A stretch of 64,000 nucleotides of DNA, from the IMG/VR virus record IMGVR_UViG_3300010430_000004, positions 96,001 to 160,000 of that record; one strand, given 5' to 3'. The stretch is from a virus. Below, one piece after another: positions 4,419 to 51,213 of the stretch; the first letter of the stretch is position 1; every line of letters begins with the position of its first letter. The translations under genes and the position numbers were made by a program. The notes under the pieces were generated by a model that searched no databases, was not told where the DNA came from, and saw nothing but the letters and a program-made list of their open reading frames with translations.

Positions 4419-4444
4419 CATTTTTGCCAAAAATATGTTATACT
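4416..4444 (+). promoter_or_regulatory. Early sigma70-type promoter (TAGCAT-N17-TATACT, extended -10 TG)
   Basis: One of 10 copies of the motif with exact 17-bp spacer. Confidence 0.75.
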
Positions 4445-13591: not shown

Positions 13592-14290
13592 ATGATCATT
13601 ATAGCGACGAGTGATACTCATTATAGGCACGAAAAAGTGGAGCTAGCTCCAGGTGATGTGTTTATTCATGCCGGAGACAACAACGCTGGTGGACCAAGCT
13701 GTGCTCGTGATTTTATTGAATGGGTTGGCGAACTTAATTACAAACATAAAATAATTATTGCAGGCAACCATGATAATGCCTTTGCCGATGATCCCAAGTA
13801 TATTGAGCAATTATGTAAAGATAATGGGGTCATATACCTAAACGATTCTGGAGTAGAGATTGATGGGGTTAAGTTCTGGGGAAGCCCATGGACACCTAAG
13901 TATGGATTAGACATTTATGTATTTAACGCTGCACGTTCAGTAACCGAACAAGCATTCTTAGGTTTTAAATATCCATTAATAGAAGAAAAGTGGGCTCTTA
14001 TCCCTGAAGATACTGACGTATTGATTACCCACGGCCCAGCTTATGATGTTCTTGACGTAAACAAAAAAGGCATACCTTGTGGGTGCGTAGAGTTGAGAAA
14101 AGCCATAGAAAAAATAAAACCACAGGTTCATATCTTTGGTCACATTCACGAAGGCGCTGGAGATACTAAAATAAATGAGACTGAATACTATAACGTGGCT
14201 TACTTTGGTAAGATTACAAGGCACTCTCGTAACGAATACACTATTGAAAAAAATCCAGCAAGCATGATTTATATTGACGATAATAAATAA
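13592..14290 (+). CDS. Metallophosphoesterase (MPPED/239FB-like)
   Basis: SDTH, HAGD, IAGNHD, WGSPW, LITHGP, FGHIHE. Confidence 0.85.
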   Translation: MIIIATSDTHYRHEKVELAPGDVFIHAGDNNAGGPSCARDFIEWVGELNYKHKIIIAGNHDNAFADDPKYIEQLCKDNGVIYLNDSGVEIDGVKFWGSPWTPKYGLDIYVFNAARSVTEQAFLGFKYPLIEEKWALIPEDTDVLITHGPAYDVLDVNKKGIPCGCVELRKAIEKIKPQVHIFGHIHEGAGDTKINETEYYNVAYFGKITRHSRNEYTIEKNPASMIYIDDNK

Positions 14291-14292
14291 TT

Positions 14293-14639
14293 GAATCTCC
14301 AGTCTGGACGGTGCGGTGTCGAAAGCCCACGTTCTTCCTGGACCGAGGGTTATGTGCGAGGCATATTAAAATGGTTGCTAAGATCTGCCCTTTACTTGTG
14401 GTATAGTCCATGAACTTACCACAGCCCCTAGAGATAGGTAGCTCCTTGATCTAGTAGAGGCTCTGCAAGCCTACACTGTTACTAGACGCGTCTAGACAGT
14501 TGTTTTTAAGCCCTATTATGGGCAGAACAAGCAGCGCATGGTGGATGTAGGAAACGCCACTAGGAGTCACAATCCTCTCAGCAGCTCAATGATACGGGGC
14601 AACAGCTGGAAAACTGTGAGGTTGCGGCTCGCTTTTTTT
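14293..14639 (+). ncRNA. Putative large structured non-coding RNA of unknown family
   Basis: Gap with no ORF of 60 codons or more; about 49% GC by hand count vs AT-rich flanks; many complementary stems; ends in hairpin plus T7. Confidence 0.65.
14616..14639 (+). terminator. Possible intrinsic terminator
   Basis: GTGAG-gttgcgg-CTCGC followed by TTTTTTT. Confidence 0.5.
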
Positions 14640-14707
14640 ATTCAGCTCAAATCTGAGCCGAGCAAAATCTTCAATAATTTCAATGACTTTATTCTCTAAA
14701 AATTTAC

Positions 14708-14736
14708 TAGCATTTTTTAATAATCCATGTTATATT
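14708..14736 (+). promoter_or_regulatory. Early sigma70-type promoter (TAGCAT-N17-TATATT)
   Basis: Conserved repeated motif, 17-bp spacer, extended -10. Confidence 0.8.
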
Positions 14737-14969
14737 TAACTCAACAAAGGAAATAAAATGGTTTATTTAATAGTTGTAGGCTTAATATGTACCACAGGCA
14801 CTATTGATTGTTATTCAAAAATAAATAACAAAGCCGAGAAAATAAACGTTACTAGAGAAATGACCAAAAAAGAGTGTGTAGAGAAGACAATGATTCTTAG
14901 AAAATATATAACAGACAATAAATTAGGAAAACCTATAGTTGTTTGTAGAATAAACTGGGAGAAGGTACA

Positions 14970-15386
14970 ATGAATCCAAGAACGCCTAAATTTTTTAACA
15001 ATGGAATTGAAGTCAAACACATTTCTGAGAAAAAAGGCAGAGGTGTATTTGCTACTCGTACTATTAAAAAAGGTGAAGTATTTGAAATAGCGCCCTGCCT
15101 AATAGTGCCCCATGATGAGAGTGAACTAGTAAACGACACTTTTTTAGGTTTTTATACCTATTCTCCTCCAGGGCCAACTAAGGATGAGGATGAAGAAACA
15201 TACGATGAGTGCTCAATTATTGCTCTTGGTTATGGATCTTTATATAATACTAACAAGAACCCAAACGCTGACTATGCTGTTTATTATAACCATGCTAAAT
15301 ACTTTGCGCTAAGAACTATTAAAAAGGGCGAAGAAATATTAATAAACTATGGTTGGGATGAGTCTTATACAAAGGATTTTGAATGA
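14970..15386 (+). CDS. SET-domain protein (putative lysine methyltransferase)
   Basis: KGRGVFATRTIKKGE, GSLYNTNKNPN, FALRTIKKGEEILINYG. Confidence 0.85.
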   Translation: MNPRTPKFFNNGIEVKHISEKKGRGVFATRTIKKGEVFEIAPCLIVPHDESELVNDTFLGFYTYSPPGPTKDEDEETYDECSIIALGYGSLYNTNKNPNADYAVYYNHAKYFALRTIKKGEEILINYGWDESYTKDFE

Positions 15387-15718
15387 AAAAGCTAAGCCAT
15401 TGGTGGCGTTGTAGTTGGTGTGGATTTGCCACAAATGATTCGGTGCATATTTGCAAGGGGAAATGATATGGATGTTTATGTGGTTACTTATGGATATGAC
15501 TATGAAAGCACTTCTGTTCTTGGAGTATACTCTACTGAACAAAAAGCCCAAGCAGCAGTAGAAGATATGGTTGGTAATTATTATGATGAAGTGAAATGGT
15601 ACACAGACTATATGGCTAAAGAGTATAGCAGTGAATCAGACAGCACTGGTAGAAGATTTGAAATTGAACAATGTCAGTTAGATGACCAATATGAAGATGA
15701 TTTATTCGAGGACTAATT

Positions 15719-16093
15719 ATGTTATACGGACTATATATGGAAAAAGAAACAGATAATATTGCTATAAAGCGCACAGCAAACTCTATTGAAGCTTTCAATC
15801 ACACCCACTATCATAAGGTTTGGAAGGCTAGAAGAGAAATTGGTGATAATCTAGGAAATCTTGATCAACCAAACCATTCGCTTGTGGGTAAAAAGCTCAG
15901 AAATCGCAAAACAGGAGATATTTATAATGTGGAGTCTGTTAAGAAACAGTTCTATGCTGGATGGTATTTTGGAGCGCTGCTTGAGTGTAACAACAGTCAT
16001 TGTTTTGCATGGTTCCACAACGAAAGCAGTATAGATAGTATTGTTGAAAAGCATTGTATAGAATTTTGGGAAGATTTTGAGGAAGTGAAATGA
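15719..16093 (+). CDS. hypothetical protein
   Basis: 124-aa ORF in coupled small-gene array. Confidence 0.5.
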   Translation: MLYGLYMEKETDNIAIKRTANSIEAFNHTHYHKVWKARREIGDNLGNLDQPNHSLVGKKLRNRKTGDIYNVESVKKQFYAGWYFGALLECNNSHCFAWFHNESSIDSIVEKHCIEFWEDFEEVK

Positions 16094-16374
16094 AAACACT
16101 GAAAAAAATTAAACTAACTTCAGATTGTGGAACAATGGCATGGACCGTTGATTTGCATGAAGTCGCCCACGATAGGGCCTGTTACTATTCCAAAAAAGAC
16201 AGCGACAATGCCACTTATGAAGATGAATATGAATTTACCTGTGAAGACGACTACGAAGCTGTTGATTGGTTACAAAACAATATGGACTGGTATAATTGTA
16301 GATCATTAAAGATGATTATGAATTTTGAAAAACCTTTAAACGAAGTAGATATTGACGATTGGGAGATAGTATAA
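16090..16374 (+). CDS. hypothetical acidic protein
   Basis: Coupled ORF. Confidence 0.5.
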   Translation: MKTLKKIKLTSDCGTMAWTVDLHEVAHDRACYYSKKDSDNATYEDEYEFTCEDDYEAVDWLQNNMDWYNCRSLKMIMNFEKPLNEVDIDDWEIV

Positions 16375-16859
16375 TGGGCTTAGATATAGATGGAATAAAA
16401 ATTATCAGAGAAGGAAAAACCGATGACACTGTTTTTGTATACGAAGGTTTTGAACGGTCCCTTAAAGATGAAGAAATAGTAAGTCTTGATTATGATGACG
16501 AAAATTGGGAATGCGTAGCTGACGGAATCTCTATGTCTTATGGATCATATAATGGATTTAGAAGAGTGCTGGCTGAAGCAGCCCTAAACACAAGTGTAGA
16601 AAATGTATGGAAATTGGCTGGAAATCTCAAAGATAGTGAACCTTATCCTTCTCCAATTTTTCATATACTTAATTTTGCAGACAATGAAGGTTTTATAGGC
16701 CCATCGGCTGTAAAAGAATTAGATAGTTATTTTGATGAAAGACTTGAATATCTTAAGGAAGAGCTTTCGGATGATGAATACTATATGCACAAGGTTATTA
16801 GTTTAGCTGAATGTATTAAAGAAACTGCCAAAGAAAATGGCTACTTGAGGTTTGGATAA
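16374..16859 (+). CDS. hypothetical phage protein (MGLDI N-terminus)
   Basis: TAATG coupling; SYGSYNGFRR..L and DNEG motifs typical of an uncharacterised phage family. Confidence 0.55.
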   Translation: MGLDIDGIKIIREGKTDDTVFVYEGFERSLKDEEIVSLDYDDENWECVADGISMSYGSYNGFRRVLAEAALNTSVENVWKLAGNLKDSEPYPSPIFHILNFADNEGFIGPSAVKELDSYFDERLEYLKEELSDDEYYMHKVISLAECIKETAKENGYLRFG

Positions 16860-17434
16860 TGGGTAGAAAATTATCAAGGGCCTTGAACCCTAAACATGGT
16901 TGGCGAGAAGCTTTAGAAGATCTTAAGGATTTTTTATGGTACGACCCAGCTAGTTGGTGTCGATCAAAAATTGAAATGCTTCAGAGAATGGTATATTGGG
17001 GCTGGCACATGAGATGGAGTTGGGACTTTGACGCTAGTACTATTTATGAAATGCTTTACAGAAAATTAGACAGAATTTACTGCTGTATGAGAGATCATTC
17101 CCATTGTGTATGGAACAGCAGCATCGAACAGCCTAGAATGAGAGAACTAAGAGAAGCTAGAGAAATCGCTAAAAGACTATGGGAAGATGACTATGATATG
17201 GCAGCTTTCTATGAGACTGAGGAAAAATACGGCAAGCTTAAATCATGGACTGAAAAAATTCCAAACAAACCTCTCTATAGATATCATTCTTTATGGGGAA
17301 ATGACGAAGAAGTTGATAAGAAAGCTATAGTGTTTAATCGTAGAAGAGATAAGCATTGGAGAGAAGTAAAAAAGCTTCATAAAGATCGTTTATTTTATTT
17401 GCTAAACAAAAACGTAGAGTATTGGTGGGACTGA
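16859..17434 (+). CDS. hypothetical Trp-rich phage protein
   Basis: 191-aa coupled ORF ending in YWWD. Confidence 0.55.
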   Translation: MGRKLSRALNPKHGWREALEDLKDFLWYDPASWCRSKIEMLQRMVYWGWHMRWSWDFDASTIYEMLYRKLDRIYCCMRDHSHCVWNSSIEQPRMRELREAREIAKRLWEDDYDMAAFYETEEKYGKLKSWTEKIPNKPLYRYHSLWGNDEEVDKKAIVFNRRRDKHWREVKKLHKDRLFYLLNKNVEYWWD

Positions 17435-50693: not shown

Positions 50694-50700
50694 AAAATAC

Positions 50701-50729: not shown

Positions 50730-50740
50730 GTTTTTAGTAC

Positions 50741-50805
50741 GGTAGGCTACGGTGTGGTACCCTCTGTTGGCCAAACACCCAGGTTCGAATCCTGGGTAGC
50801 CTGCC
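50741..50805 (+). ncRNA. Minimal tRNA-like RNA (acceptor stem + T arm, no D arm)
   Basis: AGGCTAC/GTAGCCT acceptor stem, CCAGG-TTCGAAT-CCTGG T arm, only 28 nt between them. Confidence 0.65.
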
Positions 50806-50823
50806 CGAATTTTTGGAGGAATT

Positions 50824-51213
50824 ATGGGAATGTTTGATAGTTTTTATTTTGCTAAAGATCTATTACCTAAAAATAAAGTAGATGAAAATCACGAATTCCA
50901 GACAAAAAGCCTTGGATGTGATCTTGACAAATACTATATTGACTCTAATAGAAACGTTACAAGGGTTCCTTTCTTTGAACAAGGCGAAAAAGACCAAGAA
51001 TTAATCAGGAGATATGAAATTGAGGAAAAAATAAACGAAGTAGTTTATGTTCGTTCTCATGTTTTTTACTATGAAAATGAAAACGATCTTTTTGGTAGAA
51101 AATATTTAGGAAGTGACGTTCAAGAATATAAAATTGTAATAAAAGATAATAAATTAGTATATGCTGAAAAAATATTAGACGAAGTTATGGGAGAAGATAA
51201 TGAAAACCCTTAA
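50824..51213 (+). CDS. hypothetical phage protein (MGMFD...FQTK family)
   Basis: GGAGG SD; characteristic N-terminus. Confidence 0.6.
   Translation: MGMFDSFYFAKDLLPKNKVDENHEFQTKSLGCDLDKYYIDSNRNVTRVPFFEQGEKDQELIRRYEIEEKINEVVYVRSHVFYYENENDLFGRKYLGSDVQEYKIVIKDNKLVYAEKILDEVMGEDNENP

What the first reader, a model, noticed from the sequence alone, without database searches (positions are those of the whole stretch)
14293..14665. About 350-nt GC-rich, highly structured intergenic RNA of unrecognised family
Seen: the largest ORF-free gap, about 49% GC. Stems: TCCAG 14298/CTGGA 14338; TATGT 14351/GCATA 14361; long-range TCTGCCC 14384/GGGCAGA 14520 enclosing TGTGGTA 14397/TACCACA 14417, CCTA-GAGA-TAGG 14427 (GNRA loop) and TCTAGTA 14450/TACTAGA 14480 with inner AGGCT/AGCCT; CAGCT 14582/AGCTG 14604. 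Mutually exclusive alternatives exist (ACTGT..CTAGAC/GTCTAG.ACAGT, 14475-14500; terminator arm vs GAGCCG near 14655). A candidate YGATA promoter precedes it and a hairpin plus T7 follows. I could not match it to tmRNA, RNase P, SRP or self-splicing introns. Inference: a possibly novel large phage ncRNA or RNA switch.
Basis: partly seen in the sequence, partly recalled or inferred. Interest (0 to 1): 0.72.

Follow-up and report, generated by a model that had tools for sequence, protein, structure and literature searches.

The report
Conserved phage operon-end RNA element
The largest gene-free stretch of this uncultured 168-kb phage is a real non-coding element whose two ends, but not its middle, recur in other phages; it matches no described RNA family and most likely forms the structured, terminator-bearing tail of an early transcript.

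Summary
Window 14291-14757 is the largest ORF-free gap of the whole 168.5-kb genome. Its first 350 nt have 50% GC against 36% for the genome, every listed stem exists, and a hairpin plus T7 closes it. The claim 'highly structured' does not hold overall: inverted-repeat counts equal chance and the MFE z-score is only -0.8 to -1.7.

No Rfam 15 family, tRNA, tmRNA or coding signal was found. Homologues took long to find but exist.
- A related phage contig (L233) has an orthologue in the same place.
- A ~45-nt 5' hairpin (14298-14342) keeps all 14 pairs there: 6 changed on both sides, none broken.
- The ~85-nt 3' module, with a 23-nt invariant block (14615-14637) running into the T-run, recurs in a locus that shares no detectable protein with this genome, right after its DnaB-type helicase gene.
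- The element is missing from the sister phage.

Best reading: a modular, accessory, sense-strand RNA element at the end of an early operon, an undescribed motif of untested function. The scan noted this same stretch before, only in overlapping windows of this genome, not on other DNA.

The parts
13592..14290 (+). Upstream gene: calcineurin-like metallophosphoesterase (232 aa). It is the last gene of a run of overlapping + strand genes, and the element starts right after its stop codon.
   Evidence: Pfam PF00149, E 1.4e-12. ORF map.
14292..14297 (+). Six-base leader in front of the 5' hairpin, identical in the orthologue L233.
   Evidence: Alignment A3.
14298..14342 (+). 5' hairpin P1: three stacked stems (5+4+5 bp). 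The apical part is a 5-bp stem with a one-base bulge and a 7-nt loop, GUCGAAA (14318-14324). In shape it recalls a tRNA T-arm.
   Evidence: Window and L233 fold on their own into the same shape. In a common 14-pair structure, 6 pairs changed on both sides, 2 on one side, 6 are unchanged and none is broken. nhmmer window vs L233: E 3e-6.
14343..14560 (+). GC-rich central domain, specific to this lineage.
   Evidence: The stems exist, but there is no significant similarity to any homologue. MFE z is -2.4 to -2.8 on both strands for a sub-region chosen after the fact.
14561..14640 (+). Conserved 3' module. It consists of a box with UCACA at 14567-14571, a variable apical part, the partner UGUGA at 14615-14619, a 23-nt block at 14615-14637 that is identical in L233 and L238, the terminator-like hairpin 14616-14632, and T7 at 14633-14639.
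   Evidence: Local alignment window vs L238 covers 84 nt, z 15.7 against shuffles. RNAalifold on 5 sequences keeps the 5-bp helix in 5 of 5, with one compensatory change. Terminator scan.
14635..14666 (+). Second small hairpin, in which the T-run pairs with a downstream A-run. It is not part of the conserved block.
   Evidence: RNAfold. Its conservation could not be assessed.
14706..14734 (+). Early-promoter consensus (ACTAGCA, 13-nt spacer, CATGTTATA) that starts the next transcription unit (orf71 at 14758).
   Evidence: Eight + strand copies in the window and three - strand copies in the left arm share this consensus. The same arrangement follows the element in L233.

Best explanation
Window 14291-14640 is a sense-strand, non-coding RNA element at the 3' end of an early operon of an uncultured 168-kb phage. 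It has three modules.
1. A 45-nt 5' hairpin with a T-arm-like tip, kept by compensatory changes in the orthologue of a related phage.
2. A ~215-nt GC-rich filler, specific to this lineage and with no proven fold.
3. An ~85-nt 3' module, in which a conserved box pairs with the start of a 23-nt invariant block that runs into a hairpin and a T7 run.

The likely course of events is as follows. The operon is read through from the metallophosphoesterase gene. Transcription stops at the T7 run. The structured GC-rich tail then protects the transcript's 3' end, or is cut off as a stable 3'-UTR-derived RNA. The invariant terminator-proximal block would act as a sequence-specific landing site for a protein or RNA partner.

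Shown: it is non-coding, its two ends are conserved, base pairs covary, it has a terminator-like end, the next promoter lies behind it, and it is accessory (present or absent among relatives). Inferred: that it is transcribed, that it terminates transcription, that it stabilises or is processed, and that a partner exists.
For: Non-coding and unusual in composition:
- It is the largest ORF-free gap of the genome and the third highest GC island. Other gaps of this genome have 21-45% GC.
- There is no coding signal. A 2-nt indel sits inside the best conserved 5' block and a 1-nt indel inside the 3' alignment, which argues against a shared reading frame.

Conservation:
- An orthologue sits at the same place in L233: after a metallophosphoesterase of 65% identity, before homologues of window orf124, orf94 and orf191, with the same terminator block and early promoter behind it.
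- P1 keeps 14 of 14 pairs, 6 of them through changes on both sides.
- The 3' module is present in L238, whose 14-kb locus shares no protein with this genome at E<1e-4. There it lies directly after a DnaB_C helicase gene.
- Diverged copies occur in L244-246 and L251.
- Identity is 100% over the last 23 nt but about 70-75% just upstream. This fits selection better than recent transfer.

Place in the transcription map:
- Hairpin plus T7.
- The next unit has its own consensus early promoter.
- The module occurs only once in the genome, so it is not the phage's general terminator.
Against: - There are no expression data.
- The family has only five distinct members so far. P1 covariation rests on two sequences, and the 3' helix on one compensatory change.
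- The overall MFE z-score is not significant.
- The terminator hairpin itself is weak: 5 bp with one G-U and a 7-nt loop.
- Predicted folds of the 3' module differ between homologues.
- The element is absent from the sister phage, which is collinear over 49 kb at 50-88% aa identity, and from other relatives. It is therefore dispensable.
- A plain terminator would not need 23 invariant bases or a 5' hairpin, so a pure 3'-end role may be too small an explanation.
Confidence: 0.5

Rival explanations
1. It is a tRNA-like or tmRNA-derived trans-acting RNA. P1 would be a relic or mimic of a tRNA top half (acceptor plus T-arm minihelix). The RNA would be handled by tRNA enzymes such as RNase P, or would act as a decoy for host tRNA-targeting factors.
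For: - The apical P1 hairpin has a 5-bp stem and a 7-nt loop, GUCGAAA, close to the T-loop consensus.
- In L244, L251 and L248 a ~150-nt tRNA-like RNA lies right next to the 3' module (in L248, after a hairpin and T-run that show no similarity to it). It has a 7-bp acceptor stem, a canonical T-arm and a discriminator base, with or without CCA.
- A weak local alignment links L233's 5' region to that unit (score 25).
- L233 carries a further canonical T-arm hairpin.
- The phage has another tRNA-like element at 50737-50806.
Against: - The window element has no acceptor stem closed by its two ends and no CCA.
- ARAGORN finds nothing at its default setting or at -ps80. Calls appear only at -ps60 or in its mitochondrial mode and are noise.
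- Rfam tRNA and tmRNA models score nothing.
- A multiple alignment of P1 with the T-arm regions does not come into register.
- The score-25 alignment is at the level of shuffled sequences (shuffled mean about 24).
Confidence: 0.17
2. It is a regulated terminator (attenuator or switch). The conserved UCACA box pairs with UGUGA, which overlaps the 5' arm of the terminator hairpin by four bases. Box pairing and terminator formation would then exclude each other and set how much transcription reads through into the next genes.
For: - The box and its partner pair in 5 of 5 homologues, with one compensatory change.
- The overlap with the hairpin found by the terminator scan follows from the coordinates: 14615-14619 against 14616-14632.
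- In L238 and L251 the next gene or RNA follows with no promoter of its own.
Against: - In the window and L238 the MFE fold uses a different register (CCUC with GAGG) and forms one long hairpin. Enforcing the box helix costs 6-9 kcal/mol.
- There is no conserved sensor domain: the centre is not conserved.
- In the window and L233 the downstream unit has its own strong early promoter, so read-through control would matter little.
Confidence: 0.13
3. It is mostly non-functional filler. In this view a mosaic of foreign or decayed sequence sits in a fast-changing accessory slot, and only a shared terminator cassette is kept.
For: - The slot between the metallophosphoesterase gene and orf191 holds 2.57 kb here and about 0.5 kb in the sister phage, with different contents.
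- The centre is unconserved and no more structured than chance.
- In the published GC-IGR surveys, most long GC-rich intergenic regions turned out to be unannotated ORFs, low-ranking candidates or unnamed.
Against: - P1 shows six double compensatory changes and no broken pair, which decay does not predict.
- Neutral sequence in a 36% GC genome should drift towards AT, as the other gaps have.
- No protein remnant was found in any frame.
- Four further contigs from other samples are 100% identical, so there is no sign of ongoing decay.
Confidence: 0.13
4. It is a DNA-level element, such as a replication origin, a packaging site or an array of protein-binding sites. It would act as DNA, not RNA.
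For: - Both strands fold about equally well.
- There is a perfect 14-nt palindrome at 14482-14495, and five CTAG sites lie within 150 nt.
- In the other lineage the module follows the replicative helicase gene.
Against: - P1 keeps pairing through G-U intermediates (G-U to G-C, A-U to G-U). These are meaningful only on the + strand RNA.
- The region has no iterons or direct repeats and no GC-skew turn.
- The CTAG cluster is not exceptional for this genome.
- The palindrome lies in the unconserved centre.
Confidence: 0.05

Closest known systems
Candidate structured RNA motifs found in long GC-rich intergenic regions (GC-IGR pipeline, PMC11109978; earlier PMC6429828)
   Same: It was found by the same signature: a long intergenic region much richer in GC than an AT-rich genome. 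Support then comes from conservation and compensatory changes in homologues.
   Different: No named motif in Rfam 15 matches. The carrier is a phage, not a bacterium. Only the two ends are conserved.
Intrinsic (Rho-independent) terminators and 3'-UTR-derived small RNAs that share their mRNA's terminator (general bacterial knowledge, my own recall)
   Same: It has a hairpin followed by a T7 run, sits at the end of an operon and just before the next promoter, and is a structured 3' tail in the sense orientation.
   Different: The 23 bases around the hairpin are invariant across phages that share no detectable protein, and a conserved upstream box pairs with them. Ordinary terminators conserve shape, not sequence. 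Transcription and processing are untested.
tRNA-like structures and the tRNA-like domain of tmRNA
   Same: The apical P1 hairpin has T-arm dimensions and a T-loop-like 7-nt loop. tRNA-like RNAs sit beside the module in the other phage lineage.
   Different: The window element has no acceptor stem, no CCA and no D- or anticodon-arm equivalents. ARAGORN and the Rfam tRNA, tmRNA and tRNA-like models fail.
Transcription attenuators and riboswitch expression platforms (terminator versus anti-terminator)
   Same: Two conserved segments can pair in a way that excludes the terminator hairpin.
   Different: There is no conserved sensor domain. The element lies at a 3' end, not in a 5' leader. The predicted energies do not favour the alternative pairing.

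Membership tests
Any Rfam 15 family (including tmRNA, RNase P, SRP, 6S, group I/II introns, self-cleaving ribozymes, T-box, phage motifs) | Covariance-model score at or above the family's gathering score | tested here: not met
   No match at gathering score in the window. At E<=10 on 14100-14900 there are only three sub-threshold matches (23, 17.9 and 15.6 bits) to two snoRNA families and one microRNA family. The homologous regions of L233, L238 and L244 give nothing either.
tRNA / tmRNA / tRNA-like structure | Acceptor stem formed by the 5' and 3' ends, with a discriminator base and CCA or a CCA-addition site | tested here: not met
   ARAGORN finds nothing at its default setting or at -ps80. 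Only noise calls appear at -ps60 or in its mitochondrial mode. No such stem shows in the folds.
tRNA / tmRNA / tRNA-like structure | T-arm: 5-bp stem and 7-nt loop of the UUCRANY type | tested here: inconclusive
   The apical P1 hairpin has 5 bp (with a bulge) and the loop GUCGAAA. The first loop base differs from the consensus. Alignment with true T-arms does not come into register.
Intrinsic terminator | GC-rich hairpin directly followed by a run of T on the transcribed strand | tested here: met
   14616-14632 forms 5 pairs (3 of them G-C) with a 7-nt loop, followed by T7. Alternatively, a long imperfect hairpin 14564-14630 of -23.6 kcal/mol ends 2 nt before the T-run. Function is untested.
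Riboswitch / attenuator | Conserved sensor (aptamer) domain upstream of the expression platform | tested here: not met
   The central domain has no similarity to any homologue. The inserts between box and partner range from 9 to 48 nt.
Riboswitch / attenuator | Mutually exclusive terminator and anti-terminator pairings, both conserved | tested here: inconclusive
   The box helix is kept in 5 of 5 homologues and overlaps the terminator's 5' arm. The MFE folds of the window and L238 use another register.
Structured ncRNA motif by comparative criteria (conservation plus covariation) | Homologues in independent genomes with compensatory base changes that keep the pairs | tested here: met
   Met for P1 (two sequences, 6 double changes, 0 broken). 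Met weakly for the 3' helix (five sequences, 1 double change). Not met for the centre.
Protein-coding gene or pseudogene | Open frame or detectable protein similarity | tested here: not met
   There are 2-10 stops per frame. Pfam finds nothing for any stop-to-stop piece. The least-interrupted frame, read through its two stops, matches only a tandem-repeat ORF on a 28.7-Mb record, with a score inflated by nine repeats.

The most novel reading that the evidence does not exclude
The element would belong to an undescribed family of mobile phage RNAs built from a tRNA-derived hairpin and a sequence-invariant 3' hairpin with a U-tail. The family would move between phages that share no detectable proteins and lodge at the ends of early or replication operons. 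It would act in trans, for example as a decoy or sponge for a host RNA-binding or tRNA-targeting factor, rather than as a mere terminator.
Probability: 0.15. Interest if true: 0.8.

Novelty: new variant of a known kind. Interest (0 to 1): 0.55.

Why it matters
Phage genomes are so compact that a 350-nt gene-free, GC-rich stretch needs an explanation. This one has a 5' hairpin kept by compensatory changes. It also has a 23-nt 3' block that is identical in phages sharing no detectable proteins. No RNA family in Rfam 15 covers it.

If it is more than a terminator, it would add a new class of accessory phage RNA, possibly tRNA-derived. Such a class would be of interest for phage-host conflict and for RNA 3'-end biology. 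If it is only a sequence-specific terminator and stability cassette, it is still a portable part worth knowing.

The work also corrects the first picture. Most of the stems that made the region look 'highly structured' lie in the unconserved centre and are no more numerous than chance.

Tried and rejected
Searches with the window element that found no homologue:
- BLAST against 50,697 GenBank phage records and 72,556 plasmids.
- BLAST of the L233 and L238 versions against the phage records.
- blastn and nhmmer against 160 loci around metallophosphoesterase homologues from IMG/VR and JGI metagenomes.
- BLAST against 54 whole related virus records.
- Exact-pattern scans of IMG/VR with four other segments.
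- One 18-mer scan of 185,579 bacterial and archaeal genomes: 48 hits, none of which extends beyond the seed.
- The invariant block with up to 3 mismatches in 401 genomes of one bacterial phylum: 4 hits against 6 for the reversed control.

Neighbouring proteins as leads:
- The neighbouring SET-domain protein and the DnaE-type polymerase have no close relatives in IMG/VR.
- orf71 is an orphan.

Population variation: four further contigs from other samples are 100% identical, so they carry no information.

Other readings tried and dropped:
- Coding: stop-to-stop pieces against Pfam. The minus-strand frame with only two stops was read through and searched against 1.84 billion proteins. The single hit is an artefact of nine repeats in a tandem-repeat ORF on a 28.7-Mb record.
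- Decayed tRNA cluster: rejected.
- Antisense regulator of other phage genes: the longest complementarity is 13 nt, which is chance level.
- CTAG-site cluster as a protein-binding array: not exceptional.
- Csr/Rsm-type sponge: I counted 6 GGA motifs by eye, about the number expected.
- Hammerhead core: none in the region.
- P1 as a true homologue of the neighbouring tRNA-like units' T-arm: the alignment is not convincing.

I built no covariance model.

Full report
**What is there.**
- The finding covers the stretch that follows the stop codon of a calcineurin-like metallophosphoesterase gene (13592-14290; Pfam PF00149).
- All genes in the neighbourhood are on the + strand.
- The window is positions 96001-160000 of a 168,536-bp IMG/VR virus record, rated complete.
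- By its DnaE-type polymerase, the nearest cultured phage is Myxococcus phage Mx1, at only 32% identity.
- Window 14291-14757 is the longest stretch of the whole genome without an ORF of 60 aa or more on either strand (467 nt).
- 14301-14600 has 49.7% GC against a genome mean of 35.9%. It is the third highest 300-nt island. Other gaps of this genome have 21-45% GC.

**Check of the observation.**
- Their number is not remarkable. The region has three perfect 7-bp inverted repeats, and dinucleotide shuffles give 3.2. The result is the same for 6- and 8-mers.
- The MFE z-score is -1.7 for 14291-14680 and -0.8 for 14293-14640. The minus strand does as well.
- Split into thirds, the 5' part has z -0.05, the centre -2.4 and the 3' part -1.1.
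- A hairpin plus T7 at 14616-14639 is confirmed.
- The proposed upstream promoter is not confirmed. The phage's early promoters share a clear consensus: ACTAGCA, a 13-nt spacer, CATGTTATA. There are eight + strand copies in the window. One copy lies behind the element, at 14706-14734, and starts the next unit. The element therefore belongs to the upstream transcript, or has a promoter of a kind I could not recognise.

**Not a known RNA and not coding.**
- Rfam 15 gives no hit at gathering score. At E<=10 it gives only three weak, sub-threshold matches, to two snoRNA families and one microRNA family.
- ARAGORN finds no tRNA or tmRNA at its default setting or at -ps80. Calls appear only at -ps60 or in its mitochondrial mode and are noise.
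- All six frames carry 2-10 stops, and no stop-to-stop piece matches Pfam.
- One minus-strand frame has only two stops. I read it through and searched it against 1.84 billion representative proteins. The single hit is a tandem-repeat ORF on a 28.7-Mb record, whose score is the sum of nine weak repeats.

**The search for homologues.** Most searches found nothing.
- GenBank phages and plasmids.
- 160 loci next to metallophosphoesterase homologues.
- 54 whole related virus records.
- Four exact-pattern scans of IMG/VR.
- An 18-mer scan of 185,579 prokaryote genomes.
- Four other contigs of the same phage from other samples are 100% identical, so they carry no information.

The sister phage (L002, and L234 from another sample) is collinear with this genome over 49 kb at 50-88% protein identity. 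It has no such region. There, the metallophosphoesterase stop codon is followed after 30 nt by an unrelated 130-aa gene. The slot up to orf191 holds 2.57 kb here and about 0.5 kb there.

**Two searches succeeded.**
- A protein search found a metallophosphoesterase of 65% identity on a 4.6-kb JGI contig, L233.
  - Downstream of it comes one small extra gene and then a ~440-nt region. nhmmer aligns that region to the window element end to end (E 3e-6).
  - After it come the same terminator block, an early promoter, and homologues of window orf124, orf94 and orf191. This is an orthologue at the same place.
- A 17-mer from the block shared by the window and L233 then found L238 in IMG/VR.
  - L238 is a 21-kb contig. 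Its 14-kb fetched locus shares no protein with this genome at E<1e-4.
  - The region lies directly after a 654-aa DnaB_C helicase gene.
- The L238 helicase has more than 240 relatives. Among six that I could inspect:
  - Two groups carry diverged copies of the 3' module: L244-246 (93% helicase identity) and L251 (85%).
  - L247 and L250 carry none, and a further relative (P0127), for which only the gene map could be read, has only a ~125-nt gap after the helicase gene.
  - L248 has other content.
- So the element is accessory in that lineage too.

**What is conserved.**
- Local-alignment scores against shuffles give z 15.7 (window-L238), 8.8 (window-L233), 9.8 (L233-L238), 24.8 (L238-L244) and 45.7 (L244-L251).
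- The window's centre (14345-14557) scores at chance against every homologue, z -0.7 to 1.3.
- The 5' hairpin P1 (14298-14342) and its L233 counterpart fold on their own into the same three-stem shape. In a common 14-pair structure, 6 pairs differ on both sides, 2 on one side through G-U, 6 are identical and none is broken. A 2-nt indel lies in the loop.
- In the 3' module, RNAalifold on five sequences keeps one helix, UCAC(A/C) with (U/G)GUGA, in all five, with one compensatory change. It encloses an insert of 9 to 48 nt.
- The 23 bases from that partner into the T-run (14615-14637) are identical in the window, L233 and L238, while the bases just upstream are about 70-75% identical. That gradient speaks for selection on the block rather than recent transfer.
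- The module occurs once in this genome and nowhere else in 1.72 Mb of fetched loci. It is not found above the control rate in 401 genomes of one bacterial phylum.

**How it probably works.**
- The safest reading is a modular operon-end element. Transcription from the upstream early genes would run through P1 and the GC-rich filler and stop at the T7 run. The structured tail would protect the 3' end, or be released as a stable 3' fragment.
- The invariant block suggests a sequence-specific partner. None of this has been tested by experiment.
- The terminator hairpin by itself is weak. In the window and L238 the favoured fold is a long imperfect hairpin in another register. Enforcing the box helix costs 6-9 kcal/mol.
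- Because the UGUGA partner overlaps the 5' arm of the small terminator hairpin, a terminator versus anti-terminator switch is possible. There is no conserved sensor, and two of the five copies are followed by their own promoter.

**A lead that stays open.**
- The tip of P1 has T-arm dimensions and the loop GUCGAAA.
- In L244 and L251 the 3' module is followed at once by a ~150-nt tRNA-like RNA. L248 has the same unit after a hairpin and T-run that show no similarity to the module. The tRNA-like RNA has a 7-bp acceptor stem, a canonical T-arm and a discriminator base, with or without CCA. Neither ARAGORN nor Rfam recognises it.
- L233 has an extra canonical T-arm hairpin.
- A weak alignment links L233's 5' region to that unit. 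It is at the level of shuffles, and a multiple alignment does not come into register.
- I therefore report a resemblance, not homology.

**Verdict.**
- The feature is real and non-coding. Its two ends are under selection in at least two phage lineages, and it is outside every family in Rfam 15.
- As a prior, most long GC-rich intergenic regions in the published bacterial surveys did not become strong RNA candidates (PMC11109978). What lifts this one is the covariation in P1 and the invariant 3' block.
- I put 0.5 on the operon-end element reading, about 0.7 on 'functional RNA of some kind', and rate interest at 0.55.

Noticed in passing
Outside the window: genome 46912-47281 (L173:6912-7281); core at L173:7145-7211 (+): This is the second largest ORF-free gap (370 nt, GC 0.42, MFE z -2.4). 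It holds a complete hammerhead core in sense orientation between two + strand genes: helix I, CUGAUGA, a minimal stem II, GAAA, a helix III hairpin and a GUC cleavage site. Rfam gives only a weak match to the RAGATH-1 hammerhead (RF03152: 15.2 bits, gathering score 56.3, E 2.3), which also has a minimal stem II.
   Followed up: partly
window 50737-50806 (+): A tRNA-like element lies directly after a consensus early promoter and before the gene at 50824. It has a canonical T-arm and a 10-bp acceptor-like stem but no CCA. ARAGORN calls it tRNA-Tyr only at a relaxed threshold. Rfam gives only weak mascRNA-like and tRNA-Sec-like matches.
   Followed up: partly
L244:4190-4345, L251:3551-3700, L248:5098-5235: These are ~150-nt tRNA-like RNAs in ~80-kb phages (7-bp acceptor stem, T-arm, discriminator base, with or without encoded CCA, and a long internal stem). 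They lie next to the conserved 3' module downstream of the replicative helicase gene. ARAGORN and Rfam do not detect them. They could be miniature tmRNA-like or other tRNA-derived RNAs.
   Followed up: partly
window 4400-54570, + strand (motif TGTTATA at 4436, 14728, 34399, 38897, 40209, 47333, 50721, 54532); three - strand copies at genome 30747, 36121, 40325: A well-defined early-promoter consensus (A-rich run, ACTAGCA, 13-nt T-rich spacer, CATGTTATA) occurs in 11 copies, oriented outwards from a switch region near genome 40-44 kb.
   Followed up: partly
window 14291-17434 compared with L002:3700-4800 and L233:1037-3224: The slot between the metallophosphoesterase gene and orf191 is hypervariable among three related phages. 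This phage has the RNA plus six small genes (including a SET-domain protein and DUF7336). The sister phage has one 130-aa gene. L233 has a PQ-loop-like 84-aa gene, the RNA and three small genes.
   Followed up: yes
window 14699: Two independent assemblies (ENA ERZ27250943, JGI 3300027820) both end their contig at exactly window 14699, just in front of the early-promoter repeat. The promoter copy at 50700 shares about 29 identical bases, so short repeats may break these assemblies here.
   Followed up: no
Outside the window: genome 51530-51600: This is the only tRNA that Rfam finds in the genome (48 bits). ARAGORN reports it with an undetermined, two-base anticodon.
   Followed up: no
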